Below are positions 19,027 to 32,426 of a stretch of DNA of 43,396 nucleotides, piece after piece. Below the pieces are notes generated by a model that was not told where the DNA came from, did no database searches, and worked only from the letters and a program-made list of their open reading frames with translations. Numbering within the stretch: the first letter of the stretch is position 1; each line of letters begins with the position of its first letter. A program made the position numbers and the translations under genes. The stretch spans positions 1 through 43,396 of the forward strand of contig JAFAHI010000679.1 of NCBI GenBank assembly GCA_019237325.1. The letters are read 5' to 3'. Source of the DNA: Verrucomicrobiota bacterium. Its GTDB lineage: Bacteria; Verrucomicrobiota; Verrucomicrobiia; Chthoniobacterales; JAFAMB01.

Positions 19027-19287
19027 TTACCGATAATACCAGCGACCGCGATTCCAATAACGACCGCGCCAATACGGATGCGCGTAGTAGCGGTAGCCGT
19101 AAGGCCCCCAATAATAGCCTGCACCATAGTAGCCCGGACCGTACCAACCAGGACCCGGACCATAATAGGCGGGTACTGGAACCGGGACAGGTAAAGGAAA
19201 ACCGATCCACCATCCGGCTTTTGCCGGCACCTGGGAGGCCAGGTTTACGGCGAATACAAGCGCTAAAACTAAAAACAATTTTTTCAT
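19027..19287 (-). CDS. Secreted Gly/Tyr/Pro/Trp-rich miniprotein
   Basis: Trimmed to ATG 19287 (MKKLFLVLALVFAVNLASQVPAKA signal peptide). The mature part is 'GWWIGFPLPVPVPVPAYYGPGPGWYGPGYYGAGYYWGPYGYRYYAHPYWRGRYWNRGRWYYR'. Confidence 0.6.
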   Translation of the reverse strand: MKKLFLVLALVFAVNLASQVPAKAGWWIGFPLPVPVPVPAYYGPGPGWYGPGYYGAGYYWGPYGYRYYAHPYWRGRYWNRGRWYYR

Positions 19288-19389
19288 AGCGTGCTCACGA
19301 GAAAAGACGAACAAGCGAGGACTTGGTTACTTGTAACCTTCCCCATTCCCACTCGTTGACGCCATCGGCGCCCTTGTCGACCGTACCGT

Positions 19390-20337
19390 ATGCTTGACCT
19401 ATTCGCGGCTTTCGATCGGGACCGTCTGGCAGCCCGCCTTAAGGCCTTGGCCCAAGCTCAAATCTTCATCGGCACGTCGTCATGGAAATATGAAGGCTGG
19501 CTGGGGATGCTTTATGACCGGGCTAACTACGAGAATCGTTCGCGGTTCTCAAAAACCCGGTTCGAACAGGAATGTCTGTACGAATACAGCCAATATTTCC
19601 CGAGTGTTTGTGTCGATGCCGGCTATTATCGATTTCCCGAAGAGCGTTATTTAGAAAAGCTCGTCGGTCAAGTCCCCAGCAGTTTTAAATTCACCTGGAA
19701 AGTCACCGATGAAATCACTCTTCGACGGTTTCCTAAGTTGCCGCGTTTTGGTGACAGGAAGGGTCAATTGAATCAAAATTTCCTGAATGCCGAGCTCTGC
19801 TACAACTCATTCCTTCGGCTGCTAGAGCCGTATCGCGAGCAAGTCGGATCTTTGGTGTTCGAGTTTGCTGAATTTCGCCCCGGCGATTTCAAGGGCGAAG
19901 ACGATTTTCTGCTGCAGCTGGAGAACTTTCTTCAAGCTCTGCCACGGGGCTGGCCTTATTCGGTCGAAATCCGGACCGAAAAATTCTTTACCACTGGTTA
20001 CTTGGAGGTGTTGGCCAAACATGGTGTTGCTCACGTTCTAAGCCAATGGTCCTACATGCCGGAAGTCAGCGAACAGCTTAAAGATCCCGGCATTTTCACC
20101 GCGGATTTTCGAGTGGCCCGGTTCCTTTTGCGACGTGGGAGACCGTACGAACGGGCAGTTCAGATCTTTAGCCCCTACGCCGAAACCCGCGAAGTAAACG
20201 AGGATGCGCGCAGCGCAGCTCGCCGCCTGATTTTTGATCTCCGGCCTGAAGAGGTGAAACCGCTCTTCTTATACGTGAACAACCGGCTTGAGGGCAACGC
20301 GCTGAATACCATATGGAGCGTTATACATGGTGATTAG
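19390..20337 (+). CDS. DUF72 family protein
   Basis: 315 aa. 'IFIGTSSWKYEGWLGMLY' and the overall length match the DUF72/UPF0759 pattern as I recall it. Confidence 0.8.
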   Translation: MLDLFAAFDRDRLAARLKALAQAQIFIGTSSWKYEGWLGMLYDRANYENRSRFSKTRFEQECLYEYSQYFPSVCVDAGYYRFPEERYLEKLVGQVPSSFKFTWKVTDEITLRRFPKLPRFGDRKGQLNQNFLNAELCYNSFLRLLEPYREQVGSLVFEFAEFRPGDFKGEDDFLLQLENFLQALPRGWPYSVEIRTEKFFTTGYLEVLAKHGVAHVLSQWSYMPEVSEQLKDPGIFTADFRVARFLLRRGRPYERAVQIFSPYAETREVNEDARSAARRLIFDLRPEEVKPLFLYVNNRLEGNALNTIWSVIHGD

Positions 20338-20360
20338 GGCGGTGGGCTTCGGTCGCGAAA

Positions 20361-20557
20361 GTAAGCAGTAATCAGTAGGTCAGTAATCAGTACAGGATTC
20401 AGGAGCCAGGAGGGCGGATCGTATCGGCATGAGGCAAAGCATGAGCACTTTCGCGGGAAGAAGGCAGACTAAATGGTGATTTCTTGCTCGCCGGCGCGCT
20501 AGGCAGTAGTGGCGGAACCTCCTGGATCCTGGCTCCTGACTCCTACACTGATTACTC
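20361..20557. repeat. Hairpin element with CAGTAAT and CAGGAGC heptamer arms
   Basis: Left 'gtaagcagtaatcagtaggtcagtaatcagtacaggattcaggagccaggagg' at 20361-20413. Inverted right arm 'cctcctggatcctggctcctgactcctacactgattactc' at 20518-20557. Confidence 0.75.
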
Positions 20558-20596
20558 GCCGATTTGGCCCACGGTGTTGATCCGCAGATGGATGCT

Positions 20597-20818
20597 CTAT
20601 TGCCGAAGGAGCTCTGCCAAGTGCCCTAGGGCTGCTGAATCTGTGGCGATTTGGGCGAGGATAGCATCTTGCTCTTTTTGGCTCCTGGCGTATGAGCCTT
20701 CCGCCAATAAACGTAGATGGTCGTCTAACTCGGGATCCAGGGCGATCCGGCCCGAGACCTCGCCGGGCATCCTGCCAAGGAAACCGAGTACGGCTCGAAA
20801 CTGTTGTTCTTCTGTCAT
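20597..20818 (-). CDS. Small acidic anti-sigma-like paralog 3
   Basis: 73 aa 'MTEEQQFRAVLGFLGRMPGEVSGR...LAEGSYARSQKEQDAIL...LGHLAELLRQ'. It shares the motif frame with 20986..21246 and 21531..21758. Confidence 0.6.
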   Translation of the reverse strand: MTEEQQFRAVLGFLGRMPGEVSGRIALDPELDDHLRLLAEGSYARSQKEQDAILAQIATDSAALGHLAELLRQ

Positions 20819-20985
20819 TCTGTAAAACTGGGTCGCTCCGCTCGGTCAGGTCGTTGCTGCATTGTTCATGTCAAAAAAATTGCCTGAACACAGCAGCGCA
20901 CTAGCCAATGCGGTCACTAGAAAGGACGCTCGTCCGCGAGAACAGTTGCAGGAATTCGTCCTTGATCCACAAATGCCACCGCGGC

Positions 20986-21246
20986 TCATTGATCCTCCCG
21001 CGACACTTGATCTTGGAGATATGCGGCCAATCGCCTAAGTAGTTCCGGGCTACCGACGAGCTCTTCGAGCAGGTAATTTCGTTCTTCGGAGCTTAGCCCC
21101 CCACCCGCGAGCGCCCTCAAGCGTTCATCGGTCTCAGCCGGAAGATCCCCGGTCATACGGCCAAACACGTCCGCAGAGGTGTCATCCGAAAAATGGAGAA
21201 GCGCGCGAAATTGATCACCGTCCAGCAACGTACGAATTGCTTTCAT
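20986..21246 (-). CDS. Small acidic anti-sigma-like paralog 2
   Basis: 86 aa '...DGDQFRALLHF...FGRMTGDL...LRALAGGGLSSEERNYLLEELVGSPELLRRLAAYL'. Confidence 0.6.
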   Translation of the reverse strand: MKAIRTLLDGDQFRALLHFSDDTSADVFGRMTGDLPAETDERLRALAGGGLSSEERNYLLEELVGSPELLRRLAAYLQDQVSREDQ

Positions 21247-21353
21247 TCAATTTTTCCTTGGGAAACAACAATTTGCTCCCTAAGAAGGAGTGCTGGTTAC
21301 GCGCTGATTGCAGGAAATTTGCAGGAGCTAGGAGGATGCGGCCAGTCGGTGTC

Positions 21354-21511
21354 TCGTCCTCGTACTCGTCGTCGTCCTCGTCCTCGTCCTCGAAGCGCTT
21401 GTCCCATCGTTTTCGATGAACCCTTTAGCTCGATCTCTGGGTACTTCGACGCGTCATCCGCGATCCACCCTTCAAAGTCGAGGACGAGGACGACGACGAG
21501 TACGAGGACGA
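21354..21511. repeat. Hairpin element with (GAGGAC/GACGAC)n arms, about 34-bp near-perfect inverted repeat, 84-nt spacer
   Basis: Left 'tcgtcctcgtactcgtcgtcgtcctcgtcctcgtcctcga' at 21354-21393. Right 'tcgaggacgaggacgacgacgagtacgaggacga' at 21478-21511. Confidence 0.85.
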
Positions 21512-21530
21512 TTGCAATTAAGCTTACAGC

Positions 21531-21758
21531 CTAGCTGCGCAGGCAGGAAGCCAGCAATTCCAGGCCGGCTCGGTTGCCTGAGACTGCCAGCAGGGTCTGT
21601 TCACGTTCGTTGTCGTCGAGCGTTCCGGCCGCTAAACCGCGGATTTTTGCCTCCAGCTCGGCATCGAGTGATTCAGCCGATCGGCCGCTTACGTCGCTCC
21701 CGAACCGTTCCAGGAACCCAACCAAGGCCCTGAATTGATCTTCTTCGTCCATGTCCAA
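21531..21758 (-). CDS. Small acidic anti-sigma-like paralog 1
   Basis: 75 aa 'MDMDEEDQFRALVGFLERFGSDVSGR...LAAGTLDDNEREQTLLAVSGNRAGLELLASCL'. It starts 15 nt after the sigma gene stop. Confidence 0.65.
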   Translation of the reverse strand: MDMDEEDQFRALVGFLERFGSDVSGRSAESLDAELEAKIRGLAAGTLDDNEREQTLLAVSGNRAGLELLASCLRS

Positions 21759-21773
21759 ATCTGCCGTGCGGTC

Positions 21774-22472
21774 TCAAAAACTATCGAAAATCGAAATCGA
21801 TTCCGACGCACAAAGCCTTACACAATCATTCCAAGTAATCTCTAAGAAAGGATCAAGCAACTTAAGGTTCCAAAGCAAGCGCCGTTTAATGGCCGCTTTG
21901 GTCTGGTCAAGGTCGCGGCTAATCGTCGCCGCGTGGCAGCCAAACATTCTGGCGAGACGTTGTTGCTCGACGCCATGTAAATAGACTAAACGGAGACAAA
22001 CCGACTCGCGAGGGGTTAGGCTGCTCAAGCTATCGGATAATGCATCTGCTAAAAGGGCGAGCACATCCGAATTATCATGCGCCGCTCCATCGGACCCATC
22101 GCCTCTATCCGCCGGCGAAGCGTCCTGATCCGGCTGCGGCTCAACTCCTCTTTCGCGCTTCCGATAGCCTGGACCGCGCCACCAGCTCTTCAATCGAGAG
22201 AGAGCCACAACCGTAATCCATGACCTCAATGAAGCGCGACCTTGATACATCTCCAAAAGCTTGACGGTTTTACCGTCACGGTCGACGCCCGCTAACAGGT
22301 CACCGGGGAGATCTTCAATAATCTCCCGCGCTTTTTCCTCGGAATCTGAGTCAGTACATTTCGAGAGCAGGACAGCCAAGCTGTAAGGTAACTCTTCGAG
22401 GACTGCATTGACAGCCGCTGAATCGCCCCCTAGCGCTGCCTGGGCGATATTCAAATCGTCTTGGTTCACCAT
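21774..22472 (-). CDS. ECF-like sigma-70 family factor
   Basis: Trimmed to ATG 22472 (MVNQDDL...), 232 aa. Region-2-like 'LRSWITVVALSRLKSWWR', an acidic linker, and region 4 HTH 'LTPRESVCLRLVYLHGVEQQRLARMFGCHAATISRDLDQTKAAIKRRL'. Confidence 0.75.
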   Translation of the reverse strand: MVNQDDLNIAQAALGGDSAAVNAVLEELPYSLAVLLSKCTDSDSEEKAREIIEDLPGDLLAGVDRDGKTVKLLEMYQGRASLRSWITVVALSRLKSWWRGPGYRKRERGVEPQPDQDASPADRGDGSDGAAHDNSDVLALLADALSDSLSSLTPRESVCLRLVYLHGVEQQRLARMFGCHAATISRDLDQTKAAIKRRLLWNLKLLDPFLEITWNDCVRLCASESISIFDSF

Positions 22473-22580
22473 ACCGACACTGACCGGCCCAGGATAGCGA
22501 TGCTGACAAGAAAGTCTACGAAAATGCAAACAAGCTAGGAGATAGAATGCAGGAGATAGGAGAGCGTTTCAAACTATCAT

Positions 22581-22691
22581 ACTGAGTAGATTCAGTAGAC
22601 GAAGTGGACCTGGACCGCTGGCGATCGTAGGGTATGGGCGTCTGCTACATCTCACATCTCACTTTCTCACTACTCACCTCTCACTTCTTAC
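22581..22691. repeat. AGTAGAC/AGTGGAC array and (TCTCACN)n array directly upstream of the GAF gene
   Basis: 'actgagtagattcagtagacgaagtggacc' at 22581-22610 and 'acatctcacatctcactttctcactactcacctctcacttcttac' at 22647-22691. Confidence 0.7.
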
Positions 22692-22697
22692 AGCTCG

Positions 22698-23318
22698 ATG
22701 TCTACCCGCCTCAATTTCCTGCCGGACGAACGCTTTGCTCCCCTCCGCACTTCACTAAAAGAGCGCCTCCAGAAAATGACGGACCTGATCACCCCGGAGA
22801 ATTTTCCTAGTTTGCTGGATTTCCGTTCCGGGAGCCTGCTCCATGACGTGTTCGCAGCGGTACGAGCGGATGAGGGCAGTGTCTGGATCCTGGACCAAGC
22901 AAAGGAACACTTGGTGGTCTCTTACGCCTCAGGTCCACACGCCGCCGACATAATGGGATTCAAGCAACCGCTTAGCGCAGGCATTGTGAGTACTTCGTTC
23001 ATCAGTGAACAGGGGTTTGCCGAGAACGACGTTTACCTGCATGAACTTCACAGCGGCCTGCTGGACGAGAAACTGCGCGTTACCACCTACGCCATGATTG
23101 TGGCGCCGTTTTATATTTTAGACGCCTGCCGAGGGGTTATCTCTTGCGTCCAATTGATCAATGTTCGGAATCAGGATGGGCGTTCGATACCGGCCGCGGA
23201 AACACCAGGCGGTTTCAGCATGGGTAACCTGGATGCAGTCAAACGAGCGGCATTAGTTCTCACCGACTTGCTCAATTACCGGCTCCTGCGGACCGCCATC
23301 GGTTGGGAAGCAAACTGA
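22698..23318 (+). CDS. Stand-alone GAF domain protein
   Basis: 206 aa. GAF-like pattern 'ADEGSVWILDQAKEHLVV...QPLSAGIVSTSFISEQGFAENDV...LRVTTYAMIVAPFYILDACRGVISCVQLIN'. The stop TGA shares one base with the ATG of the next gene. Confidence 0.7.
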   Translation: MSTRLNFLPDERFAPLRTSLKERLQKMTDLITPENFPSLLDFRSGSLLHDVFAAVRADEGSVWILDQAKEHLVVSYASGPHAADIMGFKQPLSAGIVSTSFISEQGFAENDVYLHELHSGLLDEKLRVTTYAMIVAPFYILDACRGVISCVQLINVRNQDGRSIPAAETPGGFSMGNLDAVKRAALVLTDLLNYRLLRTAIGWEAN

Positions 23319-24124
23319 TGAAAACCAGCTCTTGGATCACGGTCGAGCAAGCTCGTGAAGCGCTGAAGACTGGAACCGGCAAAAATATCAAGATTGCCGT
23401 GATCGACTCCGGCATCGAGGTTAGTCATCCAGACTTAAATGGGCTGCAACTAACCGACGATACTCATGTGATCGGCAGCGACCTACAACTGGTCGTTCGG
23501 CCTGGCGACGGCACCGATCTGTTCGGGCACGGAACAGCGGTGGCCGCGATTATCCGGTCATTGGCGCCCGAAGCGGAGATCGGTAGTTTCCGGGTCCTGA
23601 ATGAGAACAATGCTTCTCGCACCGAAGTAATCTGCGAAGGCGTCAATCTGGCACTGGATCGCGGCTATAATATTCTGAATTGCAGCTTCGGTTGTGGAGT
23701 AGCGGAACACATACATCGATACAAGGCCTGGATCGACCAAGCGTATCTAAAAGGTGTCCACGTGGTGGCGGCTTGTAACAATTACGATTACACCCGGCCA
23801 GAGTGGCCTGGTTATTTCCCCTCTGTAATCACCGTCAATTACGGTGAGCTAAAGGACAAAGAAGATTTCTACTATAAGCCGGGCAACCTGGTTGAGTTTG
23901 TCGCGCGCGGGACCGGCTTTGAGGCGGCCTGGAAAGGGGGCAAGCGACGCCGGATGCACGGTAGCAGTTTTGCCGCACCGCATGGAGCCGCTCTTCTTTC
24001 TCGGATTCTGTCGATCTATCCGGATCTGGCTCCACTCCAAGCAAAGTCTTTGCTGCACCAGCTCGCTAAGCCCTGGGACGAAAAAGCGTTCTCGACGCTT
24101 CTCGCTCCCAATGCGCCCCGATAG
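23318..24124 (+). CDS. S8 (subtilisin-like) serine peptidase, no signal peptide
   Basis: 268 aa from ATG 23318. Triad motifs 'IAVIDSGI' (Asp), 'HGTAVAAII' (His) and 'HGSSFAAPHGAA' (Ser). The N-terminus is hydrophilic. Confidence 0.9.
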   Translation: MKTSSWITVEQAREALKTGTGKNIKIAVIDSGIEVSHPDLNGLQLTDDTHVIGSDLQLVVRPGDGTDLFGHGTAVAAIIRSLAPEAEIGSFRVLNENNASRTEVICEGVNLALDRGYNILNCSFGCGVAEHIHRYKAWIDQAYLKGVHVVAACNNYDYTRPEWPGYFPSVITVNYGELKDKEDFYYKPGNLVEFVARGTGFEAAWKGGKRRRMHGSSFAAPHGAALLSRILSIYPDLAPLQAKSLLHQLAKPWDEKAFSTLLAPNAPR

Positions 24125-24142
24125 GAACGCTGGGACGTGGCG

Positions 24143-24225
24143 AGGCAGTGGACGTAGTGGACTGAGTAGACGGAGTAGATCCGAGCCGGGTTATTTCACC
24201 CCGTCCACTGATGTCCACTGCCTAC
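24143..24225. repeat. Hairpin element with AGTGGAC/AGTAGAC arms
   Basis: 'aggcagtggacgtagtggactgagtagacggagtagat' at 24143-24180 and the inverted 'cgtccactgatgtccactgcctac' at 24202-24225. Confidence 0.7.
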
Positions 24226-24309
24226 ACGCCCTCTGCTCCCTTCTGCAAGCGGCCGCTCCGGCCGCGTCTATCCGGTAAGTACTGAATCTTTTCTTTTACC
24301 ACTTTCCTT

Positions 24310-25485
24310 ATGCCAACCGATACTTTCATCTCCAGTCAGAAGGCACCGGAACGGCGACTTTTGTTCTGGTGGTATCTCGAGCCAACTACCTTCTTTGGCG
24401 CCATCCTTCTTTGTTTCTGGCTGTGTTCAACAACGGCTGCGTCGATGTGCGGCAGCGGCTTCGTGATTCAACAGAACGGTTATATCCTAACGAACTACCA
24501 CGTCATCGAGGACGCGACCCGAATTACGATCACAGTTCCGGGACGTCAGGCTGTTTCTGCTCGCTTAGTCACCACCGATCAGGAGAAAGATCTCGCGATC
24601 CTGCAGGTATCGCTCGGTAATTTGACGGCGCTGCCTATCACCTCTTCCGAAGCGGTCCAGGTCCTCGATTCGATCACGGTGCTAGGATACCCGTTACCAA
24701 ACGAGCTCGGAACGGCGCTTTCAGCGTCCGCCGGTAAGGTGAACGCCGTGAGAGACCGACGCAATGACAGCACACGCTTATTCCAGATCGACGCCAATGT
24801 TAATCCGGGCAATAGCGGGGGCCCGTTACTCAACAATCACGGAGAGGTGGTGGGAATCGTTGTCGCCAAAATCAACTCTCTGCAATATGCAAAAGAAAAT
24901 GGGGCGTTACCGGAGCGGATTAACTTCGCGATTCCGATCGATGAAGCTCAAGAGCTTCTTCGCAAAGTGATTCCCAATTTCAGGCTCTCCAACCGGCAAG
25001 AAGTGTTGACCGACCAGCAAGTGTTTCAGTCGGCCAAAGGCTCGACCGTACTGATTGTAGCAGACCAAGACGAAACCAGCCGCGCGACCTACGCAGAAAA
25101 TGAAGACAACGGATCCCTGGCGCGATTCATCGGCGAGTTTGTTCGAGCCGGTGAAATCGGCTCGGGCGAAGGTCAAACCGACTATTACGCCTCGCCCTGC
25201 GACTATTTCGAAAACGGGCAATGTACGCGCGAGTCTATTTTTCGGGAGTTGCTAGATTACAATCACAAATGGCCGTCTCGCCAATATCAATTGTTAGGTA
25301 CGCCGTTGGTCAATGTTACGAATCAGGGAGACCGCTACGACGTTAGTTTCAAAGTCTCTTTCACGCTGCGCAACCGGGCTAAGACCGTCAGTGGTGTCTG
25401 TTATTTTCGCGCACAACTGATTCGCAGCCAGGACAGCTTCTTGATTACGACGATCCGGGAGAAGTTCGCCGCAGACGGAAGCTAG
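24310..25485 (+). CDS. Trypsin-like (S1C/DegP-type) serine protease with N-terminal TM/signal anchor and a C-terminal domain of unknown function
   Basis: 391 aa. Hydrophobic 'TTFFGAILLCFWLCSTTAA'. Triad 'LTNYHVIED', 'KDLAILQV' and 'NPGNSGGPLL'. About 170 aa at the C-terminus have no recognisable motif. Confidence 0.85.
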   Translation: MPTDTFISSQKAPERRLLFWWYLEPTTFFGAILLCFWLCSTTAASMCGSGFVIQQNGYILTNYHVIEDATRITITVPGRQAVSARLVTTDQEKDLAILQVSLGNLTALPITSSEAVQVLDSITVLGYPLPNELGTALSASAGKVNAVRDRRNDSTRLFQIDANVNPGNSGGPLLNNHGEVVGIVVAKINSLQYAKENGALPERINFAIPIDEAQELLRKVIPNFRLSNRQEVLTDQQVFQSAKGSTVLIVADQDETSRATYAENEDNGSLARFIGEFVRAGEIGSGEGQTDYYASPCDYFENGQCTRESIFRELLDYNHKWPSRQYQLLGTPLVNVTNQGDRYDVSFKVSFTLRNRAKTVSGVCYFRAQLIRSQDSFLITTIREKFAADGS

Positions 25486-25486
25486 T

Positions 25487-25710
25487 GAAGGCGAAAGGGC
25501 GAATGGGCGAAACGGCGATGCGGCGAAGTGACGTATGGGCATGACGACGGGCTGTGCATGCGGGTAATTCCAGGACTCCGAAAACGGATGGGACCTATGG
25601 GACTAATAGGACTAATGGGTCCCGTCTCATTAGTCCCATGGGTCCCATAAGTCCCATCCGATCTCAGCACCCACGAACGCCCCTCCGCCCATTCGCCGTT
25701 TCGCTCTTCC
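25487..25710. repeat. Nested hairpin element: GGCGAAR outer arms, ATGGGACY inner arms
   Basis: Outer arms 25487-25527 / about 25678-25710. Inner arms 25585-25623 / 25627-25660 with a 3-nt loop. Confidence 0.75.
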
Positions 25711-25756
25711 CCCGCCCTTGCAACCGAGGCGCCTACACGCGATGGTTCGGCGCTAG

Positions 25757-27802
25757 ATGCCTATTCTGGACGAGCTCATGCCCGCGCTGAAGTCCGTTCG
25801 CGGAATTCGCAGATTTTGGCATCGGCGCTCTGAATGGTTTCCTCGCCTGGTTTCCAAATATCAGGAGGCCGATCAAACTGACACCGCGCTCCGATTCAGC
25901 AAGGACAGCTCGGTGTATACCCGCTTAGCCAAAGCGGCGACGCAGCTTGGCGAAAATCTGATCGCCCTGGAAATCGCGAGCGAGGGCAGCGACAGCCTGG
26001 AGACAGCTTTTCGGCAGAAATTCTCGGAAATAGTAACAGCTCAACAGATCGACCTGGCCCGCGAACGGGCGATCGCTTTGTCGAGGTTAGGCTCGATTCG
26101 AGAAGCGCAAAAGATCTTGCGAGACCTTTTAGCGATCCGAGCCGACGATGATAAATCGTTGAGTGCGCTGGGACGGACTTACAAAGACCTGGCTAAGTTT
26201 CCAGGCCCAGCCCAAAAAAAGTTCCTGGAACGATCGCGCGCCTACTATTTGAAGGCTTACGCGGTGAATGGTGAATACTATCCCGCGATTAACGCCTGCA
26301 CTTTATCGCTCTGGCTGAACGACCGGGAACCCGCCCGTCGATTAGCCGGAGAGGTGAAAAGGCTTTGCCTCAACTCCCTGACGTCTAATCCCGACGACTA
26401 CTGGGCTCTAGCGTCGATGGCCGAAGCCGAGTTAGTCTTAAGCGCCGATATGGGTGAGATTACTCAACCAACTTTTGAGTATTACCAACAGTACTCCCGG
26501 CTCATACACCAAAAGCGCGGCTGGGGCGATCTCAGCTCCACCAGCGAACAAGCAAAACGAATCTGTGAATCGCTGGATTGGCACTTCGGCGCCCTCAAAC
26601 GAATTTTCCGCGTGCCGGATGTCGTCATTTTCTCCGGCCATATGGTCGATGCACCAGGACGCCAGGTGCCACGTTTCCCAGGCAAATTCGCGGACGCCGT
26701 TGCAGAACAGATACGCCGAACCTTGGATTCCCTTGACGCCCGGATCGGGATCTCATCCGCAGCCTGCGGTTCGGACCTTCTCTTCATCGACGCTATGTTG
26801 GCGCGGGAAGCTGATATCCAGGTGGTTCTACCTTGGCGAAAGGAAGAGTTCAAACAGACCAGTGTGTTAGCTGGCGGCCAGGAGTGGGCACAGCGGTTCG
26901 ATCGAGCCATCGACGACGCCACTTCGCTCACCTACCTTTCGCAACAGGGCGCTCCCAGCGGCAACCTCGGTTACGTCTATTGCAACGACTGCATGAACGG
27001 TATGGCCTTGTTCCGGTCCGAAAAACTAGGCTCCGATGTGCGTCCCCTGGCAGTTTGGGACGGCCGGCGTGGAGACGGTCTAGGCGGTACTTCCAGCTTT
27101 GTAGATTTCTGGACATCGAAAGGTCACGCGGTCGAAGTGATTGACCTCGAAAAGATCACCGATGCGAAACCAAAGGATGAGAAGTTTGATCGGATCTCAT
27201 TCGGAGAAATCACTGTTAGTGAAGGTCAACAGACCATAAAAACACTTCTGTTTGCCGACGTAGTCGGTTACAGCAAGATCCCCGAAAACCAGATCAAATA
27301 CTTCGCTCCGGAATTCCTGGGAATGATTTCCTCGTTGATCTCCGAGACGCCGCGCCCGGTCCTAACCAATACTTGGGGTGACGCCATTTATTTCGTGTTC
27401 GATGAACCGGTATCGGCGGGCAATGTCGCGCTCCGCCTGCTAGAAACGCTGAAACAAGGAACCTGGCGACGAGAACTGACGGCGTCGCTCAACCTCCGGA
27501 TCAGTCTGCATACCGGGCCAGTCATCCTCTGCCTCGACCCCGTCATTCGCCAAATTTCTTTCACTGGATCACACGTGAGCCACACCGCACGCATCGAGCC
27601 GATTGTAAGAGAAGGCGAAGTTTGGGCCACGGAAGCCTTCGTCTCTTATGCGATGATTGACAGCCAAAAACGAGGCAACCCGTGCAGGTTCGGGTTTGAC
27701 TATCTTGGCCAAGTTGAGTTTGCCAAGAACTATGGCCGATATCCACTCTACCGATTGAGCTCACCGGTTACGGACGGCGCTGATACAGAAGGCACGGAAT
27801 AA
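25757..27802 (+). CDS. Multidomain protein: helical TPR-like (DUF4071/TRAF-binding-like) + SLOG/DprA-like Rossmann module + class III nucleotidyl cyclase domain
   Basis: 681 aa. It contains 'GEYYPAINACTLSLWL' and a Rossmann-like module ('VVIFSGH', 'GISSAACGSDLLFIDAMLAREADIQVVLP', 'LAVWDGRRGDGLGGTSSFVDFW'). Cyclase motifs are 'LLFADVVGYS', 'NTWGDAIYFVF', 'RISLHTGPV' and 'GSHVSHTARIEP'. Confidence 0.8.
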   Translation: MPILDELMPALKSVRGIRRFWHRRSEWFPRLVSKYQEADQTDTALRFSKDSSVYTRLAKAATQLGENLIALEIASEGSDSLETAFRQKFSEIVTAQQIDLARERAIALSRLGSIREAQKILRDLLAIRADDDKSLSALGRTYKDLAKFPGPAQKKFLERSRAYYLKAYAVNGEYYPAINACTLSLWLNDREPARRLAGEVKRLCLNSLTSNPDDYWALASMAEAELVLSADMGEITQPTFEYYQQYSRLIHQKRGWGDLSSTSEQAKRICESLDWHFGALKRIFRVPDVVIFSGHMVDAPGRQVPRFPGKFADAVAEQIRRTLDSLDARIGISSAACGSDLLFIDAMLAREADIQVVLPWRKEEFKQTSVLAGGQEWAQRFDRAIDDATSLTYLSQQGAPSGNLGYVYCNDCMNGMALFRSEKLGSDVRPLAVWDGRRGDGLGGTSSFVDFWTSKGHAVEVIDLEKITDAKPKDEKFDRISFGEITVSEGQQTIKTLLFADVVGYSKIPENQIKYFAPEFLGMISSLISETPRPVLTNTWGDAIYFVFDEPVSAGNVALRLLETLKQGTWRRELTASLNLRISLHTGPVILCLDPVIRQISFTGSHVSHTARIEPIVREGEVWATEAFVSYAMIDSQKRGNPCRFGFDYLGQVEFAKNYGRYPLYRLSSPVTDGADTEGTE

Positions 27803-27900
27803 TGCCTGGAATAAGTTTGCAAGTCTGGCCCGTTCTACCGTCTTATCGTCGATGACTGCCGGCATCGGCAGACAAACCAGATAAAACCAGGTACTCCAAA

Positions 27901-28137
27901 ATGGCTGAATCACTGAAACAACAGCGTCAAACAAAGAAGACTGAAGGTAGCCTCGACCCGGATAAACAAGGCAAGGAAAGCGCGGCATCGGATCAGAATG
28001 CAGAAGTTGGGGGCCGTGGGGTGCTTATTTTTGTGACCTGTCCGCACTGCGGCTCTAGCCGAATCATTTCGTTCGATTACGAGGGCGAATGGTTTACCTG
28101 CAGCCAGTGTCAGGGTACTTACCAAGTTGCTTCCTGA
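27901..28137 (+). CDS. Zinc-ribbon miniprotein 1
   Basis: 78 aa. Disordered basic N-terminal half, then 'CPHCGS...(17 aa)...CSQCQG'. Confidence 0.5.
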   Translation: MAESLKQQRQTKKTEGSLDPDKQGKESAASDQNAEVGGRGVLIFVTCPHCGSSRIISFDYEGEWFTCSQCQGTYQVAS

Positions 28138-28499
28138 CCCCTACTCCATCAGTTCCCCGCCACCTCGGGTCTGAAGCTGCAGATATTCGCTAGGATCGAA
28201 TTTCTCGTATTGGGGGACGAGCAATCGTCCCACGAGAATAGATACTCTATCAGCTCCACGTTTTTAACCGTGCTCGGTTGGGGCGGTTTGGATCCAGGCA
28301 TTAGTCGATGCCGGGTCGAGCAGTGATCGCCGCCCCGGAATCGACAGAAGAGCGAAAAGGAAATCGCAATTTAGGTAATCGTACGTATTTCTCGGTCAGA
28401 GTTTTGAGGTAGTCTGCTAGTAACCGCGGAGGCGCTAGTGGTTAACATTAACGCTAACATTAACCATCCGAACCGGCGGTTAGTTATCACCTCAATCCC

Positions 28500-28736
28500 A
28501 TGGCTGATCCTGAAGAGACCTACCTAGGTAGTACGGACCCATTTGGAAGGAGAATTCGGCCAACAAATGGGTTCGGTACATCCTCAGAAACAGAGGACTA
28601 TTACGACGCCGGCGACCGCAGTCATGGTTTCCTTTCCCATGTTTGTAAGCAGTGCGCCGCAGAAAATTGGATCGACCCTGGCTGGCTGGTTTTTCGGTGT
28701 TGGTCGTGTGGCAGCACAGAGCGGTCGTCGCTGTAG
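28500..28736 (+). CDS. Zinc-ribbon miniprotein 2
   Basis: 78 aa. Disordered acidic N-terminal half, then 'CKQCAA...(15 aa)...CWSCGS'. Confidence 0.5.
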   Translation: MADPEETYLGSTDPFGRRIRPTNGFGTSSETEDYYDAGDRSHGFLSHVCKQCAAENWIDPGWLVFRCWSCGSTERSSL

Positions 28737-28751
28737 CTCACAGGCTAACGA

Positions 28752-29558
28752 TCAACCTGCTAACAGACTATCGGCAGTTCGCGGAACTGTCTCTAGGTCT
28801 TTCAATTTGACCATTGCCTCGTAGCCGGCCGAGCCACGGGTCTCGGATTGCAGCTTTCGCAGAATGCGGGCGATGTGCTGATGAACGGTGCGAACACTGA
28901 TCTTAAGGATACTGGCGATTACACCGTCTTGTTTCCCTTTCATTACCCAGTGCAGCACTTCGGCCTCTCTTGGAGTTAGCCCGACCCGTTCGAGATCTTC
29001 CGGACCCGGAATGACCTGAGCCGCCGCGCACCGCAGGGCTTCTATGCGTTGCAAATTCCGGTGCGCTAGAGCCAAATGCGGCGCGAGCAGGCTGAGTAGG
29101 AGTGCTTCTTCGTCAGAAAAATCTCTGTCTCGATTTACGGTCACTCCTGCAATGTGTCCAGGGATGTCAAGAGTAGCCACCGTCTGATGACTTATGCCGA
29201 GCGGGAAAAAAACGTCTGCGTAAAGCGCGCTTTGTTCAAACTCTCGCTGAGCCACACAATCGGAGAGCTTAACCGCCCCCTTGGCGCCCGCCCGCGCAGC
29301 AGGAACGACCGGGTGGGTCGGGAGCAATTCCACAAGGCGCTGCTTTAATTCGGCCGAGACTCGATCATCATCACTTGTGGCGCTAATGACCTCCCCGGTC
29401 TTGGGATTGAACGTGTCCAACGAAAAGACACAGTCCTTAAACAATTCGCCGAGGGCGCTAAAGACGGCCGACGGAAATTCACGCAAACCTTCGGCGCCGT
29501 AGATGCGTTCCAGACTGCGCATTAACGCCTGCACGCTTCGGGTTGAGATTGTATCCAT
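28752..29558 (-). CDS. LuxR-family transcriptional regulator with N-terminal GAF-like sensor domain
   Basis: Trimmed to ATG 29558, 268 aa. C-terminal HTH 'LTPREAEVLHWVMKGKQDGVIASILKISVRTVHQHIARILRKL'. The N-terminal approximately 190 aa look like an alpha/beta sensor. Confidence 0.85.
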   Translation of the reverse strand: MDTISTRSVQALMRSLERIYGAEGLREFPSAVFSALGELFKDCVFSLDTFNPKTGEVISATSDDDRVSAELKQRLVELLPTHPVVPAARAGAKGAVKLSDCVAQREFEQSALYADVFFPLGISHQTVATLDIPGHIAGVTVNRDRDFSDEEALLLSLLAPHLALAHRNLQRIEALRCAAAQVIPGPEDLERVGLTPREAEVLHWVMKGKQDGVIASILKISVRTVHQHIARILRKLQSETRGSAGYEAMVKLKDLETVPRTADSLLAG

Positions 29559-29814
29559 GGTGGTAGTGCTTTGACGCTTACGTCCTGCCAGTGCCACCTC
29601 CCTGGACCCAATCCCTCTACGTAACAGGTTAACGTACGAAATGCACGCTAAAAGTGGCTCGGGGTTAAGTACTTTCGAATAAAGAGACGAGGAAAGACTG
29701 CTGATATTGCGGAAATTCTTCTGCGCCCTCGGGGCGACGGCTTCTTAGCCGTGGAGCGGCGATAGATTGTAGCCAAGGGGTTTAGCCTATAAGCTTAACT
29801 TAAGTGTTTGGTCG

Positions 29815-29840
29815 TAACCCAGGGCTAATGCCCTGGGTTA
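29815..29840. repeat. Hairpin taacccagggc-taat-gccctgggtta (11-bp stem)
   Basis: Read directly, between the LuxR start and the TIR gene stop. Confidence 0.7.
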
Positions 29841-29930
29841 TAGTGTTGCGCCGCTTCGCGCCAAGTCCGGGGCTAACAGAGTCCGCAGGAGGACCGAGGA
29901 GCCCGAGGACGAATTAATATTCGCGCTGGA

Positions 29931-31670
29931 TTACTTGTTCCCCGAATTCGACCCCGTTACACCCAGACGGCGCGCTTCGGCGAAGTCGGCTTTGGCCTTA
30001 TCTCCCTGTCCTGTTTTCTGATAAGCCATCGCTCGGTTGTAGTAGGCACGACCGTAATTCGGATTGAGCCGGACCGCTTCGTTGAAATCGTTAATGGCGT
30101 CGTCAGTCTTTCCTTTCTCAGAGAACGCAATCCCTCGATTGTAATAGGCCAACATGTAACTCGGATTTCTCCGGATCGCTTCGTTATAGTCGGCCATCGC
30201 GCGGTCGATATCTTTCAGGTCGTCGTAACAGAGACCCCGGTTGTTGTACGCATCCAAGAAGTTGTCGTTGATGTCGATCGCATAAGAATAATCGCTGATC
30301 GCCTTCTTGTAGTTTCCCAGGGTCTGGTAACACAACGCCCGCATGTAATAAGCGTTGGCATATTTCTGCTCGCGGTCGAGGGTTGCAGAGAAATCGGAAA
30401 TCGCCGGGTCGTATTCCTTAGCGTAGTAGTGAAGCAGGCCGCGATTGTAATAGGGATCGGCATATTGCGGATCAGCCCGCATGGAGTCCTCATAATCGCT
30501 CTGCGCTTGCTTGGCATTGCCCTTGTCATAATAGGCCAGGCCCCGATTATTGTAGGCCCGGGAAACGTTTCCGTTGAGATGCAAGGCTTGGTTGTAGTCC
30601 GCAATAGCGTTGTCGTACTGCTTCGCCTTCCAGTAAACGATTCCGCGGTCATTGTAATAGTCAGGATTATCTGACCGCAAACGAATCGCCGTATTGTAAT
30701 CGCCTAGCGCTTGCTCGTATTGCTCCAAATTTTTATAGCAATTGCCGCGCTTGCTATAGGAGTCGGGATTGTTGCCATCAAGTCGGATCGCGGTCGTATA
30801 GTCACTGAGCGCCGCCTGGTAGTCTCCTTGAGTTTCATGTGCCTGCCCCGCAGCCAACGCGCTGGCCACATCCGTCGGACTCGAGGTCTCGGTCGCCCGC
30901 GGCTTCGGTGGGGGTGAAAACGGGGTTGCGCTCGGCGCTTGTACGACGACCTGTTCTTTCTTGAAGCCTTGGCTCACCACATACGCTGCCACCAGCCCGA
31001 AACAAACCAGTCCAATCACCAAGAAGGCCAGCATTGCGGTTACGGCGATTACGGCAATTGGAGCTTTCGGCTTCACCGGAGCCGGCGCCCCGGGAACTGC
31101 GCCGGGATGAACCGGAAAACCGGTCTGCGGCGCGCCGCCACCGCCTCGATCCGGTGGTCCGCTAGAACTCGGGGTCTGGCCGCTGCCAACCGGAACCGGT
31201 CGAGGAGTCCGATTGGCTGGGCTTTCTTCGCGGTGCCTTATTGGAGCCTGACTGGTCTGGCCGCTGGCTCGTTCCAGCAAAATCTGAATCGTCGAAGTGA
31301 GTTGCTTCAGGTGTTGCTCCAGAGGCGGAGTCAAAGCATCAAGCCAATGCGGCGAGCTGATATAATACTCCAGCGCTCTCGCCGGTGGCACATCTTCGAT
31401 TCGAAACGGGATGATCGGGATACCATGATGTACGGCCCGCTCAACCTCGCGCTTCACTTGGTTCGATCGATTTGCGTTCGAGGAGAAAATGAGGAGCATC
31501 GCGCGGCATTTCTCGAGTGCTTCAATAATAGCCTCTGCGTAATCCATCCCTGGCAGAACGTCGCGCGGTGCAATCCAACAACGGATTCCGGCAGATTCGA
31601 GAGCCGCACAGGCAGCATCCGCGGTGAGTTTGTCAGCGATCGCGTAACTGATGAATACATCCACAGCCAT
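29931..31670 (-). CDS. TIR domain - Pro-rich linker - TM helix - TPR repeat protein
   Basis: Trimmed to ATG 31670 (MAVDVFISYA...), 579 aa. TIR_2-like 'VFISYAIADK...IRCWIAPRDVLPGMDYAEAIIEALEKCRAMLLIFSSNANRSNQVKREVERA'. TM helix 'IAVIAVTAMLAFLVIGLVCFGLVAAYVV'. About 9 TPRs (A..DY..AI.L.P....AY.NRG). Confidence 0.9.
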   Translation of the reverse strand: MAVDVFISYAIADKLTADAACAALESAGIRCWIAPRDVLPGMDYAEAIIEALEKCRAMLLIFSSNANRSNQVKREVERAVHHGIPIIPFRIEDVPPARALEYYISSPHWLDALTPPLEQHLKQLTSTIQILLERASGQTSQAPIRHREESPANRTPRPVPVGSGQTPSSSGPPDRGGGGAPQTGFPVHPGAVPGAPAPVKPKAPIAVIAVTAMLAFLVIGLVCFGLVAAYVVSQGFKKEQVVVQAPSATPFSPPPKPRATETSSPTDVASALAAGQAHETQGDYQAALSDYTTAIRLDGNNPDSYSKRGNCYKNLEQYEQALGDYNTAIRLRSDNPDYYNDRGIVYWKAKQYDNAIADYNQALHLNGNVSRAYNNRGLAYYDKGNAKQAQSDYEDSMRADPQYADPYYNRGLLHYYAKEYDPAISDFSATLDREQKYANAYYMRALCYQTLGNYKKAISDYSYAIDINDNFLDAYNNRGLCYDDLKDIDRAMADYNEAIRRNPSYMLAYYNRGIAFSEKGKTDDAINDFNEAVRLNPNYGRAYYNRAMAYQKTGQGDKAKADFAEARRLGVTGSNSGNK

Positions 31671-31715
31671 CTTATGTCCCCGACGAGAAAGTTTGTAGGA
31701 ATTGCAGCATTTTTT

Positions 31716-31763
31716 AGCATCCAACGCCAACAAAAGCGCATGCTTTTGTTGGCGTTGGATGCT
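31716..31763. repeat. Perfect 22-bp-stem hairpin (agcatccaacgccaacaaaagc-gcat-gcttttgttggcgttggatgct)
   Basis: Arms 31716-31737 and 31742-31763. It lies 46 nt upstream of the TIR gene start and about 115 nt downstream of the NlpC/P60 stop. Confidence 0.85.
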
Positions 31764-31850
31764 TCGGCAGACTGATCTGGCTACGCCAAACCATTCTGGC
31801 TCCTAGTATGATATTAACCGAGGCAAGAAACTCCGTGCGCTGGCCCCGTA

Positions 31851-32384: not shown

Positions 32385-32426
32385 GGCCGCGATTCTGCCA
32401 CAGGTGGAGAAACGACGTCAACGGGG

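What the first reader, a model, noticed from the sequence alone, without database searches (positions are those of the whole stretch)
22698..27802. GAF + cytosolic subtilase + exported trypsin-like protease + TPR/SLOG-like/cyclase gene row: candidate cyclic-nucleotide-gated protease system
This is a row of four same-strand genes.

1. A 206-aa stand-alone GAF-like protein. Its TGA shares a base with the ATG of the next gene (ctgATGa at 23316-23320).
2. An S8 subtilase with an intact Asp/His/Ser triad but no signal peptide. It is therefore an intracellular protease translationally coupled to a small-molecule-binding domain.
3. A membrane-anchored or exported S1 protease with an uncharacterised C-terminal domain of about 170 aa.
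4. A 681-aa protein with three parts: a DUF4071-like helical repeat region (YYPAINACT), a DprA/SLOG-like Rossmann module (GISSAACGSDLLFIDAML; LAVWDGRRGDGLGGTSSF) and a class III nucleotidyl cyclase domain.

A cyclase placed next to a cNMP-receptor-type domain that is operonically welded to a protease follows the signal-generator/sensor/effector logic of CBASS, Pycsar and type III CRISPR signalling. I do not recognise this domain combination as any named system.
Basis: partly seen in the sequence, partly recalled or inferred. Interest (0 to 1): 0.8.

Follow-up and report, generated by a model that had tools for sequence, protein, structure and literature searches.

The report
Cyclase-linked GAF–protease–sigma factor module
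A soil Verrucomicrobium carries a conserved four-gene core (a ligand-sensing GAF protein coupled to an intracellular protease, plus a sigma factor and a small anti-sigma-like protein) that repeatedly sits next to cyclic-nucleotide cyclases, one of which is partnered with a membrane TIR receptor; this suggests an untested multi-step signalling relay, not a simple four-gene protease operon.

Summary
All four ORFs are real and their domain calls hold: GAF fold, S8 with an intact triad and no signal peptide or prodomain, a membrane-anchored S1 protease, and a TPR-S + SLOG-like + class III cyclase protein. The row is not one conserved unit. It is a lineage-specific juxtaposition of two modules.

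Module 1 is specific to Verrucomicrobiota.

Module 2 is widespread in soil bacteria. It comprises the TPR-S/SLOG/cyclase protein and an adjacent TIR–TM–repeat receptor (15 of 26 fully flanked loci; here at 29931-31733).

The S1 protease is a lineage-specific neighbour.

Class III cyclases of three architectures lie near GAF–S8 in five different arrangements, which supports a cyclase→GAF→S8 link.

Best model: cNMP-gated proteolysis releases a sigma factor, analogous to CRISPR CalpL/T/S. No step has been tested biochemically. PADLOC assigns nothing to the GAF or cyclase proteins, and I found no publication describing either module.

The parts
20597..20818 (-). SMALL paralogue 3 (73 aa), anti-sigma-like small protein family
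   Evidence: ORF. Family alignment with the conserved QF(R/K)xLLxFL...EVxGR...LAxGxLxxxER motif. Present in 47 of 61 GAF-centred loci (cluster 3).
20986..21246 (-). SMALL paralogue 2 (86 aa)
   Evidence: No Pfam family. Weak zf-HC2 (anti-sigma) hits in 3 of 13 family members.
21531..21758 (-). SMALL paralogue 1 (75 aa), 15 nt downstream of the sigma gene
   Evidence: In the distant group E the single SMALL gene overlaps the sigma stop codon.
21774..22472 (-). ECF-type sigma-70 family factor. About 232 aa from the internal Met; the ORF extends to 22529.
   Evidence: TIGR02937 sigma70-ECF scores 49.3 bits against a cut-off of 42.9; Sigma70_r4_2. Homologue within 10 kb of GAF in 34/43 loci. Relatives are annotated at 230-232 aa.
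22511..22523 (.). Only conserved block (AAAGTCTAYGnnAAA) in the divergent sigma|GAF intergenic region; candidate promoter or operator
   Evidence: Alignment of 13 intergenic regions from groups A and B; sequence. Function not tested.
22698..23318 (+). Stand-alone GAF protein (206 aa), candidate cNMP receptor and regulator of the S8
23318..24124 (+). Minimal cytoplasmic subtilase (S8, 268 aa) with no signal peptide or prodomain, translationally coupled to the GAF gene
   Evidence: Adjacent to GAF in 53/55 loci.
24146..24210 (.). Intergenic hairpin built from 9-nt simple repeats; generic genome feature and possible unit boundary
24310..25485 (+). Membrane-anchored HtrA-like S1 protease with an unassigned ~170-aa C-terminal domain. 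Lineage-specific neighbour of the cyclase, probably not part of the core.
   Evidence: Replaced by trypsin-PDZ proteins in L008, L009 and L038. A 39%-identity homologue sits in an unrelated context.
25491..25713 (.). Nested intergenic hairpins (outer arms 25491-25534 / 25677-25713; inner arms 25580-25617 / 25628-25665)
25757..27802 (+). TPR-S (about residues 1-285) + SLOG/DprA-like domain (about 286-470) + class III cyclase domain (about 490-670)
   Evidence: Metal-binding D501 and D542 and R612 are invariant. Non-canonical N538, S601 and S608 occupy the base-specifying and transition-state positions.
28752..29597 (-). LuxR/GerE-type regulator with a weak GAF-like N-terminal region. Conserved between the cyclase and TIR genes in close relatives; possible second receptor.
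   Evidence: GerE E=2.3e-14, GAF_2 E=0.061. Conserved in L014, L016, L008 and L075-L078.
29931..31733 (-). TIR (residues 26-134) – single TM (about 222-250) – TPR x9 receptor-like protein; predicted partner of the SLOG/cyclase protein
   Evidence: TIR_2 E=2.3e-20. TM segment. Catalytic-Glu motif conserved. A TIR gene lies within 3 kb of the cyclase homologue in 15/26 fully flanked loci.

Best explanation
The core is a four-gene cytoplasmic switch specific to Verrucomicrobiota: an ECF-type sigma factor, a small anti-sigma-like protein (SMALL, three paralogues here), a stand-alone GAF protein and a minimal prodomain-less subtilase.

Proposed mechanism: a nearby class III cyclase makes a cyclic nucleotide. 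Here that cyclase is the TPR-S/SLOG/cyclase protein; in other lineages it is a RyR-type or HAMP-type cyclase. The GAF protein binds the nucleotide and thereby releases or activates its partner S8 protease. The protease cleaves the SMALL protein(s) holding the sigma factor, and the freed sigma factor switches on a regulon.

Shown here:
- the folds;
- intact catalytic residues in the S8;
- GAF-S8 translational coupling;
- conserved linkage of the four core genes down to 28% GAF identity;
- recurrent, rearranged linkage to cyclases.

Inferred:
- that the GAF ligand is a cNMP;
- that GAF controls the S8;
- that SMALL is an anti-sigma factor and the S8 substrate;
- that the 681-aa cyclase is active.

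The S1 protease is most likely a separate periplasmic function that travels with the cyclase gene in this lineage.
For: - GAF fold, with cNMP-binding GAFs as the nearest sequence and structure relatives.
- S8 follows GAF in 53/55 loci, with overlapping stop and start codons.
- S8 triad conserved, with no signal peptide or prodomain.
- Sigma homologue within 10 kb in 34/43 loci, in three different orientations.
- SMALL family in 47 of 61 GAF-centred loci, always next to sigma or GAF. This includes group E, where it overlaps the sigma stop codon.
- Weak zf-HC2 anti-sigma hits in the SMALL family.
- A cyclase lies within 10 kb in 21/35 fully flanked loci, and 16 of those 21 are within 2.7 kb. The arrangements are: TPR-S/SLOG type after S1, after a CobW-like gene or after an ABC gene; RyR type upstream; canonical HAMP-cyclase (Pfam E about 1e-26) divergent and adjacent in Verrucomicrobiaceae.
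- Rough test by lineage gives p about 0.0015.
- Mechanistic precedent: cA4→SAVED-Lon CalpL→anti-sigma CalpT→ECF sigma CalpS (bioRxiv 10.1101/2024.05.08.593097).
Against: - Ten of 17 evaluable lineages have no cyclase within 10 kb.
- The enrichment test loses significance if the true cyclase density in these genomes is five times my rough background.
- The NKFDE motif of cNMP-binding GAFs is only partly kept (N and F), so the ligand is open.
- No GAF-S8 fusion protein appears among the top 150 representatives.
- The SMALL family has no significant match to known anti-sigma structures.
- The window's cyclase domain has Asn, Ser and Ser at the base-specifying and transition-state positions and scores just below Pfam's cut-off.
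- Hairpins separate S8, S1 and the cyclase gene.
- Some lineages have an ABC exporter directly after the S8, which suits a peptide-export reading.
Confidence: 0.4

Rival explanations
1. The GAF protein is a ligand-independent (or non-cNMP) inhibitor or chaperone that substitutes for the missing subtilase prodomain. It would hold the S8 inactive until it is itself degraded, as PopD does for the subtilase PopC in Myxococcus. The cyclase neighbours would be inherited synteny with no functional link.
For: - The S8 lacks any prodomain or signal peptide.
- GAF and S8 are obligately co-encoded.
- Ten of 17 lineages lack a nearby cyclase.
- The NKFDE motif is incomplete.
Against: - Cyclases of three unrelated architectures were found beside the pair in five arrangements, including a divergent adjacent HAMP-cyclase in all 9 evaluable group E loci. 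Inherited synteny alone does not easily explain this.
- The nearest GAF relatives are cNMP binders.
Confidence: 0.2
2. The S8 is a cytoplasmic leader peptidase (QhpE-like) that matures small proteins for export through an ABC transporter. The SMALL proteins, or the Zn-ribbon ORFs seen in some loci, would be the substrates. The sigma factor and GAF would merely regulate the operon.
For: - NCBIfam QhpE profile E=1.2e-24 over nearly its full length.
- An ABC exporter follows the S8 directly in about 10 loci. L004 and L006 add several ~82-aa ORFs and a double M16 peptidase.
- SMALL occurs as three tandem paralogues here.
Against: - The ABC exporter is absent from the window and from most lineages.
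- SMALL proteins are conserved along their whole length, with no leader/core pattern and no Cys-rich core.
- No modification enzymes are present.
- The QhpE score (86.9) is far below the 165-bit cut-off.
- SMALL is tied to the sigma gene, not to the ABC gene.
Confidence: 0.12
3. One reading: the locus is an abortive-infection-type anti-phage system in which the cNMP-activated S8 (and/or S1) protease is a toxic effector.
For: - The cyclase protein is partnered with TIR proteins.
- Neighbouring genes in relatives include CHAT, SIR2-TIR, nSTAND1 and SLATT proteins.
- Trypsin and subtilase models exist in PADLOC.
Against: - PADLOC has no hit for the GAF or cyclase proteins, and only generic protease-domain hits for S8 and S1.
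- The GAF-S8-sigma core keeps conserved chromosomal neighbours (LptE, TP_methylase) in groups A and B, unlike a mobile defence island.
- The tight sigma/SMALL linkage implies a transcriptional output, not a lethal one.
- The S1 has a membrane anchor and is probably periplasmic.
Confidence: 0.1

Closest known systems
CalpL–CalpT–CalpS (type III CRISPR SAVED-Lon protease / anti-sigma / ECF sigma)
   Same: [quoted passage not shown]
   Different: - The sensor is a separate GAF protein, not a fused SAVED domain.
- The protease is S8, not Lon.
- The messenger source is a class III cyclase, not Cas10.
- The small partner has no detectable homology to CalpT, and there is no CRISPR context.
- All steps here are inferred.
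Thoeris (ThsB TIR → cADPR isomer → ThsA SLOG-SIR2)
   Same: A TIR protein is encoded next to a protein with a SLOG-type domain. In Thoeris the SLOG domain senses the TIR product (PMC9503650).
   Different: - The domain fused to SLOG is a class III cyclase with TPR-S, not SIR2 or a TM domain.
- The TIR partner is a TIR–TM–repeat receptor-like protein.
- PADLOC Thoeris models give only marginal ThsB hits for the TIR protein and nothing for the cyclase protein.
Pycsar / Pucsar (class III-type cyclase → cNMP → effector)
   Same: A dedicated cyclase is encoded beside a candidate cNMP receptor/effector pair. Pucsar also couples a cyclase with TIR proteins (bioRxiv 10.64898/2026.08.12.744502).
   Different: - In Pucsar the TIR protein carries a cNMP-binding domain and is the effector. 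Here the TIR partners have no such domain and the receptor candidate is GAF.
- PADLOC gives no hit.
- Neither SLOG nor GAF is mentioned in that survey; the only peptidases it mentions are caspase-superfamily and JAB.
PopC–PopD of Myxococcus xanthus
   Same: [quoted passage not shown]
   Different: - PopC is 50.8 kDa with an extra N-terminal region and is secreted.
- I could not check the PopD fold.
- No sigma or cyclase linkage is reported.
cNMP-binding GAF domains of PDE2/5/6, CyaB2 and Lcd1
   Same: These are the best sequence-profile and structural matches of the 206-aa family.
   Different: - Those GAFs are fused in cis to the enzymes they regulate. Here the GAF is a stand-alone protein next to a protease.
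- The NKFDE motif is incomplete.

Membership tests
GAF domain | GAF fold: a six-stranded antiparallel sheet flanked by helices | tested here: met
   AF2 pLDDT 89. 273 PDB matches at E≤1e-3; the best-ranked ones listed are almost all GAF domains. Profile versus 1ykd E=1.3e-8.
cNMP-binding GAF subgroup | NKFDE signature and demonstrated cAMP/cGMP binding | tested here: inconclusive
   Only the N and F positions are conserved in alignment A1. The nearest relatives are cNMP binders. Binding itself cannot be tested here.
Peptidase S8 (subtilase) | Asp-His-Ser triad in that order, plus the oxyanion Asn | tested here: met
   PF00082 E=6.7e-22. D30, H71 and N121 in 55/55 homologues; S216 in 50/55.
Peptidase S8 (classical secreted subtilisins) | Signal peptide and N-terminal I9 propeptide | tested here: not met
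   The catalytic Asp is at residue 30. The stop-to-stop upstream extension is 0-14 codons in about half of the loci. Maximum hydropathy is below TM range.
HtrA/DegP (S1C) | Trypsin-like domain followed by PDZ domain(s) | tested here: not met
   Trypsin_2 E=7.7e-34, but no PDZ. The C-terminal 166 aa have no Pfam hit. All NCBIfam HtrA scores are far below their cut-offs.
Class III nucleotidyl cyclase | Cyclase homology fold with two metal-binding Asp residues | tested here: met
   Foldseek TM 0.75-0.84 to 3et6, 1wc1, 3r5g and 1ybu. D501 and D542 invariant.
Class III nucleotidyl cyclase | Canonical Lys/Asp (or Glu/Cys) base-specifying pair and transition-state Asn + Arg | tested here: not met
   N538 and S601 occupy the specifying positions and S608 replaces the Asn. 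R612 is kept (alignment A2; residue mapping by my own alignment to the canonical motifs). Activity and substrate are therefore open.
SLOG superfamily | Rossmannoid TIR/DprA/LOG-like fold with a Gly-rich nucleotide loop | tested here: inconclusive
   - The AF2 model shows an alternating β-α pattern over residues 289-463.
- Viral DprA-like hit, TM 0.74, E=3e-4.
- Weak YpsA/cpYpsA hits, E about 0.1.
- Paralogue fused to SLATT_3 + SLATT_1.
- No PDB sequence hit.
Thoeris | ThsB-type TIR plus ThsA (SLOG fused to SIR2 or a TM effector) | tested here: not met
   The TIR neighbour is present, but the SLOG is fused to a cyclase. There is no PADLOC ThsA hit, and ThsB hits are only marginal, E=0.002-0.03.
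Pycsar / CBASS | PycC-type cyclase or CD-NTase with a cognate cNMP/CDN-binding effector, recognised by PADLOC models | tested here: not met
   No PADLOC hit for the cyclase or GAF proteins. No CD-NTase in the locus.
ECF sigma / anti-sigma pair | σ2-σ4 sigma factor passing the ECF model, co-transcribed with its anti-sigma | tested here: inconclusive
   - Sigma: TIGR02937 scores 49.3 against a cut-off of 42.9, so this part is met.
- SMALL lies immediately downstream or overlapping.
- Anti-sigma identity rests only on zf-HC2 hits at E≥0.025 in 3/13 members, with no PDB match.
CalpL/T/S | SAVED-Lon protease with CalpT and CalpS in a type III CRISPR context | tested here: not met
   No SAVED, Lon or CRISPR component in the window. 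The resemblance is in logic only.

The most novel reading that the evidence does not exclude
The locus encodes a relay between two nucleotide second-messenger systems that ends in transcription.

1. A membrane receptor (cytoplasmic TIR, one TM helix, extracytoplasmic TPR) senses an external cue.
2. Its TIR domain makes an NAD-derived signal.
3. The SLOG domain of the TPR-S/SLOG/cyclase protein senses that signal and switches on the fused class III cyclase.
4. The resulting (possibly non-canonical) cNMP binds the stand-alone GAF protein.
5. This unleashes the minimal cytoplasmic subtilase.
6. The subtilase destroys the small anti-sigma proteins and frees an ECF sigma factor.

This would be a bacterial counterpart of receptor-TIR → regulated proteolysis → transcription factor signalling. 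The TIR-TM-sensor + SLOG-cyclase pair would be a widespread, undescribed receptor module in soil bacteria.
Probability: 0.2. Interest if true: 0.9.

Novelty: new variant of a known kind. Interest (0 to 1): 0.65.

Why it matters
If the model holds, it would add three things:

1. A GAF-gated intracellular subtilase as a new kind of second-messenger effector, and a second example after CalpL/T/S of messenger-triggered proteolytic release of a sigma factor. This one would run on ordinary cNMP signalling instead of CRISPR.
2. A new small anti-sigma-like family.
3. A widespread two-gene module in which a membrane-spanning TIR receptor is paired with a SLOG-cyclase. That pairing implies conversion of one nucleotide signal into another.

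It would also give a function to the many "TRAFs-binding domain-containing"/TPR-S cyclases annotated in Acidobacteria and Verrucomicrobia.

Each link can be tested directly with purified proteins.

Tried and rejected
- **Four genes as one conserved operon:** rejected. L009 and L038 separate the two pairs by 6 kb and four opposite-strand genes. Cyclase homologues at 37% identity stand without GAF-S8.
- **S1 protease as a core component:** rejected. It is replaced by unrelated trypsin-PDZ proteins in close relatives, and a 39%-identity family member lies in an unrelated context.
- **GAF-S8 fusion proteins as Rosetta-stone evidence:** none among the top 150 of 1606 representatives.
- **Hairpins as system-specific regulatory elements:** rejected. 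They are generic across the window. Rfam finds nothing in 20000-32000, and the promoter/terminator scan is at or below shuffle expectation.
- **SMALL family against the PDB:** no meaningful hit.
- **Middle-domain profile against PDB sequences:** no hit. The PDB fold search of the whole model was dominated by cyclase hits.
- **Literature:**
  - No occurrence of 'TPR-S' as a domain name in the library.
  - The 2015 SLOG/SLATT paper is not held.
  - No paper combines GAF, subtilisin, anti-sigma and cyclase in this sense.
  - The PopD domain composition could not be checked.
- **PADLOC assignment:** none beyond generic protease and TIR domain hits.

Full report
**1. Observation**

The four same-strand ORFs exist exactly as described.

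- **GAF/S8 junction.** The GAF stop codon and the S8 start codon share one base, TGATG at 23316-23320.
- **206-aa protein.** It has no Pfam or NCBIfam hit of its own, but many of its 135 relatives carry PF13185. A profile of 24 family members hits the cAMP-binding tandem GAF of CyaB2 at E=1.3e-8, the Lcd1 GAF at 7e-7 and PDE6C GAF-A. The AlphaFold model (pLDDT 89, pTM 0.85) gives PDE2A, Lcd1-cAMP, CyaB2 and PDE6 GAFs as its top Foldseek matches.
- **S8.** It is a bona fide subtilase (PF00082, E=6.7e-22). Asp30, His71 and Asn121 are invariant in 55/55 homologues and Ser216 is present in 50/55. The catalytic Asp at residue 30 leaves no space for a signal peptide or prodomain. In about half of the loci the reading frame cannot extend more than 14 codons upstream.
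- **S1 protein.** It has a Trypsin_2 domain (E=7.7e-34), a hydrophobic N-terminal anchor, and a C-terminal 166 aa without any Pfam match.
- **681-aa protein.** It has TPR-S (E=9.7e-14) and a sub-threshold Guanylate_cyc hit that passes in its homologues. Its model (pLDDT 85) superposes on class III cyclase catalytic domains at TM 0.75-0.84.
- **Middle domain.** The motifs FSGHMxD, SSAACGSD and AVWDGxxGDGxGGT are invariant in alignment A2. The fold is alternating β-α. It matches a phage DprA-like protein (TM 0.74, E=3e-4) and gives weak YpsA/cpYpsA hits. A paralogue is fused to SLATT_3 + SLATT_1, the "SMODS and SLOG-associating" effector domains.
- **Hairpins.** The two intergenic hairpin regions are real. 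They belong to a genome-wide class: at least 20 hairpins whose arms are short degenerate tandem repeats lie in intergenic regions of the 43-kb window.

**2. What is conserved around GAF-S8**

The GAF family is confined to Verrucomicrobiota in the reference-genome scan: Chthoniobacterales, Terrimicrobiaceae, Methylacidiphilaceae and Verrucomicrobiaceae, plus one contig binned as Binatia. I mapped neighbours in 60 genome loci plus the window by unbiased ORF clustering and by profile or phmmer labelling.

| Feature | Loci with it | Loci evaluable |
|---|---|---|
| S8 directly after GAF | 53 | 55 |
| Sigma homologue within 10 kb | 34 | 43 |
| Class III cyclase within 10 kb | 21 | 35 |

- **Sigma factor.** An ECF-type sigma factor lies at window 21774-22472 on the minus strand. 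It passes TIGR02937 with 49.3 bits against a cut-off of 42.9.
- **SMALL family.** This is a previously unnamed family of ~75-100-aa proteins with the motif QF(R/K)xLLxFL…EVxGR…LAxGxLxxxER. It is found in 47 of 61 GAF-centred loci. The window has three tandem copies downstream of the sigma gene.
- **Distant members.** In the most distant group (Prosthecobacter and Brevifollis, 28-30% GAF identity) the order is GAF→S8→ ←SMALL←sigma, and the SMALL start overlaps the sigma stop.

The gene position and a weak zf-HC2 resemblance (3 of 13 members, E≥0.025) suggest an anti-sigma factor. No structural homologue was found by sequence.

**3. The cyclase link**

A class III cyclase lies within 10 kb of GAF-S8 in 21 of 35 fully flanked loci, and 16 of those 21 are within 2.7 kb. 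The cyclase and its position differ between lineages:

- TPR-S/SLOG/cyclase after the S1 gene (window, L013-L016, L073).
- The same protein after a CobW-like gene, in the operon-like row sigma>SMALL>GAF>S8>CobW-like>cyclase (L020-L034 and others).
- The same protein after an ABC exporter (L042, L046).
- A RyR-type relative upstream (L004, L006, L057).
- In Verrucomicrobiaceae, an unrelated canonical HAMP-cyclase (Guanylate_cyc E about 1e-26), divergent and adjacent in all nine evaluable loci.

Repeated re-creation of the linkage with different cyclases is the strongest argument that the GAF protein reads a cyclase product.

Caveats:

- Ten of 17 lineages (clustered at 70% GAF identity) have no cyclase within 10 kb.
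- My rough enrichment test gives p=0.0015 by lineage, but this disappears if the true cyclase density is five times higher.
- There are no GAF-S8 fusions among the top representatives.

**4. The row is a juxtaposition of two modules**

In relatives at 57-60% identity (L009, L038), GAF-S8 and the S1/cyclase pair are 6 kb apart, separated by four opposite-strand genes. The protease next to the cyclase there is a trypsin-PDZ protein only distantly related to the window's S1. A homologue of the window's S1 at 39% identity sits in an unrelated context.

I then sampled 79 cyclase-centred loci from metagenomes, mostly 31-43% identical. GAF-S8 is present in only two of them, both of the Verrucomicrobial arrangement types. 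The recurrent neighbour of the cyclase is instead a TIR protein:

- A TIR protein lies within 3 kb in 15 of 26 loci with at least 3 kb on both sides, and within 500 bp in 13. The background is 4 TIR ORFs in 340 kb, giving p about 1e-11.
- Pfam confirmed TIR_2 in 7 of 10 sampled partners, fused to TPR, Sel1, FGE-sulfatase or PEGA+F5/8 domains. Two more are WD40 proteins whose 25-row listing is saturated by WD40 families, as with the TIR-WD40 in L008.
- Of 32 TIR partners, 23 share one plan: N-terminal TIR, a 60-100-aa linker, one TM-like segment, then a large variable C-terminal domain.
- The TIR catalytic-Glu motif is conserved.
- The window's member is the TIR–TM–TPR gene at 29931-31733 on the minus strand. 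A LuxR-type regulator with a weak GAF-like N-terminus lies between it and the cyclase gene.

SLOG domains sense TIR products in Thoeris (PMC9503650). The pairing therefore suggests TIR→SLOG→cyclase signalling. The reverse direction, cyclase→TIR as in Pucsar, is not excluded, but these TIR proteins lack a cNMP-binding domain.

**5. Mechanism**

Best-supported reading (confidence about 0.4): a cNMP-gated regulated-proteolysis switch. The GAF protein senses a cyclase product and controls its partner, a minimal cytoplasmic subtilase. The subtilase removes the SMALL anti-sigma-like protein(s) and frees the ECF sigma factor.

- **Shown:** the folds, the catalytic residues, the translational coupling, and the conserved and repeatedly rearranged gene linkage.
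- **Inferred:** the ligand, the GAF-S8 interaction, SMALL's role and its cleavage, and cyclase activity.
- **Cyclase residues.** The window's cyclase keeps both metal-binding Asp residues and the Arg. It has Asn538/Ser601 at the base-specifying positions and Ser608 in place of the transition-state Asn. Its substrate, and even whether it is active, are open.

The closest precedent in logic is CalpL/CalpT/CalpS.

Rivals, weighed in the structured fields:

- a ligand-independent inhibitor or chaperone role for GAF, like PopD;
- a QhpE-like leader peptidase feeding an ABC exporter;
- an abortive-infection protease effector.

**6. Comparison and novelty**

PADLOC recognises no system here. The membership tests for Thoeris, Pycsar, CBASS and CalpL/T/S fail on defining components, so the resemblance is functional only. 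I found no paper describing a GAF-S8-sigma module or a TIR + TPR-S/SLOG/cyclase pair. The library does not hold the 2015 SLOG paper, so prior computational mention of the latter cannot be excluded.

I rate it a new variant of a known kind: a second messenger acting through a sensor and a protease on a transcription factor, with Thoeris-like TIR/SLOG pairing. Interest is 0.65. The comparative evidence is unusually coherent and every step is directly testable, but nothing has been shown biochemically.

Noticed in passing
window, e.g. 2684-2854, 3568-3692, 11663-11863, 13798-14019, 14781-14970, 21354-21511, 32426-32561, 38005-38091, 41601-41684: Almost every intergenic region carries a long imperfect hairpin whose arms are short (6-9 nt) degenerate tandem repeats. 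Each hairpin has a different repeat unit (GTTCGCA, ATGACAG, CTCGTC, GGGACYA ...). There are at least 20 in 43 kb. The style is shared but the sequences differ, unlike classical REP elements.
   Followed up: partly
L075-L154 (e.g. L106:8328-9923, L092:9733-12285, L154:6475-7719); window 29931-31733: The TIR partners of the TPR-S/SLOG/cyclase family mostly share one plan: N-terminal TIR, linker, single TM-like segment, then a large variable domain (TPR, WD40, Sel1, FGE-sulfatase, PEGA+F5/8). This holds for 23 of 32. They look like membrane-spanning TIR receptors in diverse soil bacteria.
   Followed up: partly
L021:11474-12565 and 20 other loci (L020-L055): A CobW_C-containing protein sits between the S8 and the cyclase gene in the largest lineage. 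It appears to have a degenerate P-loop and has a His/Cys-rich C-terminal tail (HDHGHDHACDHEHGSDEHDCCHH), which may indicate a metal-binding accessory of the module.
   Followed up: no
L021:15598-20606 and about 12 other loci: A TPR-CHAT protease and a CHASE2-class III cyclase form a conserved convergent pair about 4-8 kb downstream of GAF-S8 in group C. A DUF4190 small membrane protein lies between them and the SLOG-cyclase.
   Followed up: no
L031:17071-18588; L024:15065-15619: Paralogues of the SLOG-like middle domain occur without the cyclase. In L031 the domain is fused to SLATT_3 + SLATT_1 membrane effector domains, about 2.6 kb downstream of a TIR gene.
   Followed up: partly
L004:9443-14925; L006:9448-16615: In group D, GAF-S8 is followed by an ABC exporter, then one to four ORFs of 82-97 aa (some with a C-terminal zinc ribbon) and a ~950-aa double M16 peptidase. 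This looks like a peptide processing/export set.
   Followed up: partly
L006:1970-6491: A SIR2-TIR protein and an nSTAND1-TPR NTPase are inserted between the RyR-type cyclase and the sigma/GAF-S8 core. This is a defence-like insertion inside the neighbourhood.
   Followed up: no
window 28752-29597 (-): A LuxR/GerE regulator with a weak GAF_2-like N-terminal region (E=0.061) is conserved between the cyclase and TIR genes in close relatives. It could be an alternative receptor for the cyclase product.
   Followed up: no
window 22511-22523: AAAGTCTAYGnnAAA is the only block conserved across groups A and B in the otherwise unalignable sigma|GAF divergent intergenic region, about 40-50 nt upstream of the sigma start. 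It is a candidate promoter or operator.
   Followed up: partly
S8 homologues in 4 of the 55 loci (alignment): Four S8 homologues have Thr in place of the nucleophile Ser in an otherwise intact active site.
   Followed up: no
window 19027-19314 (-): A 95-aa ORF has a signal-peptide-like N-terminus and an extremely Gly/Tyr/Pro/Trp-rich C-terminal half (…PVPVPVPAYYGPGPGWYGPGYYGAGYYWGPYGYRYY…).
   Followed up: no
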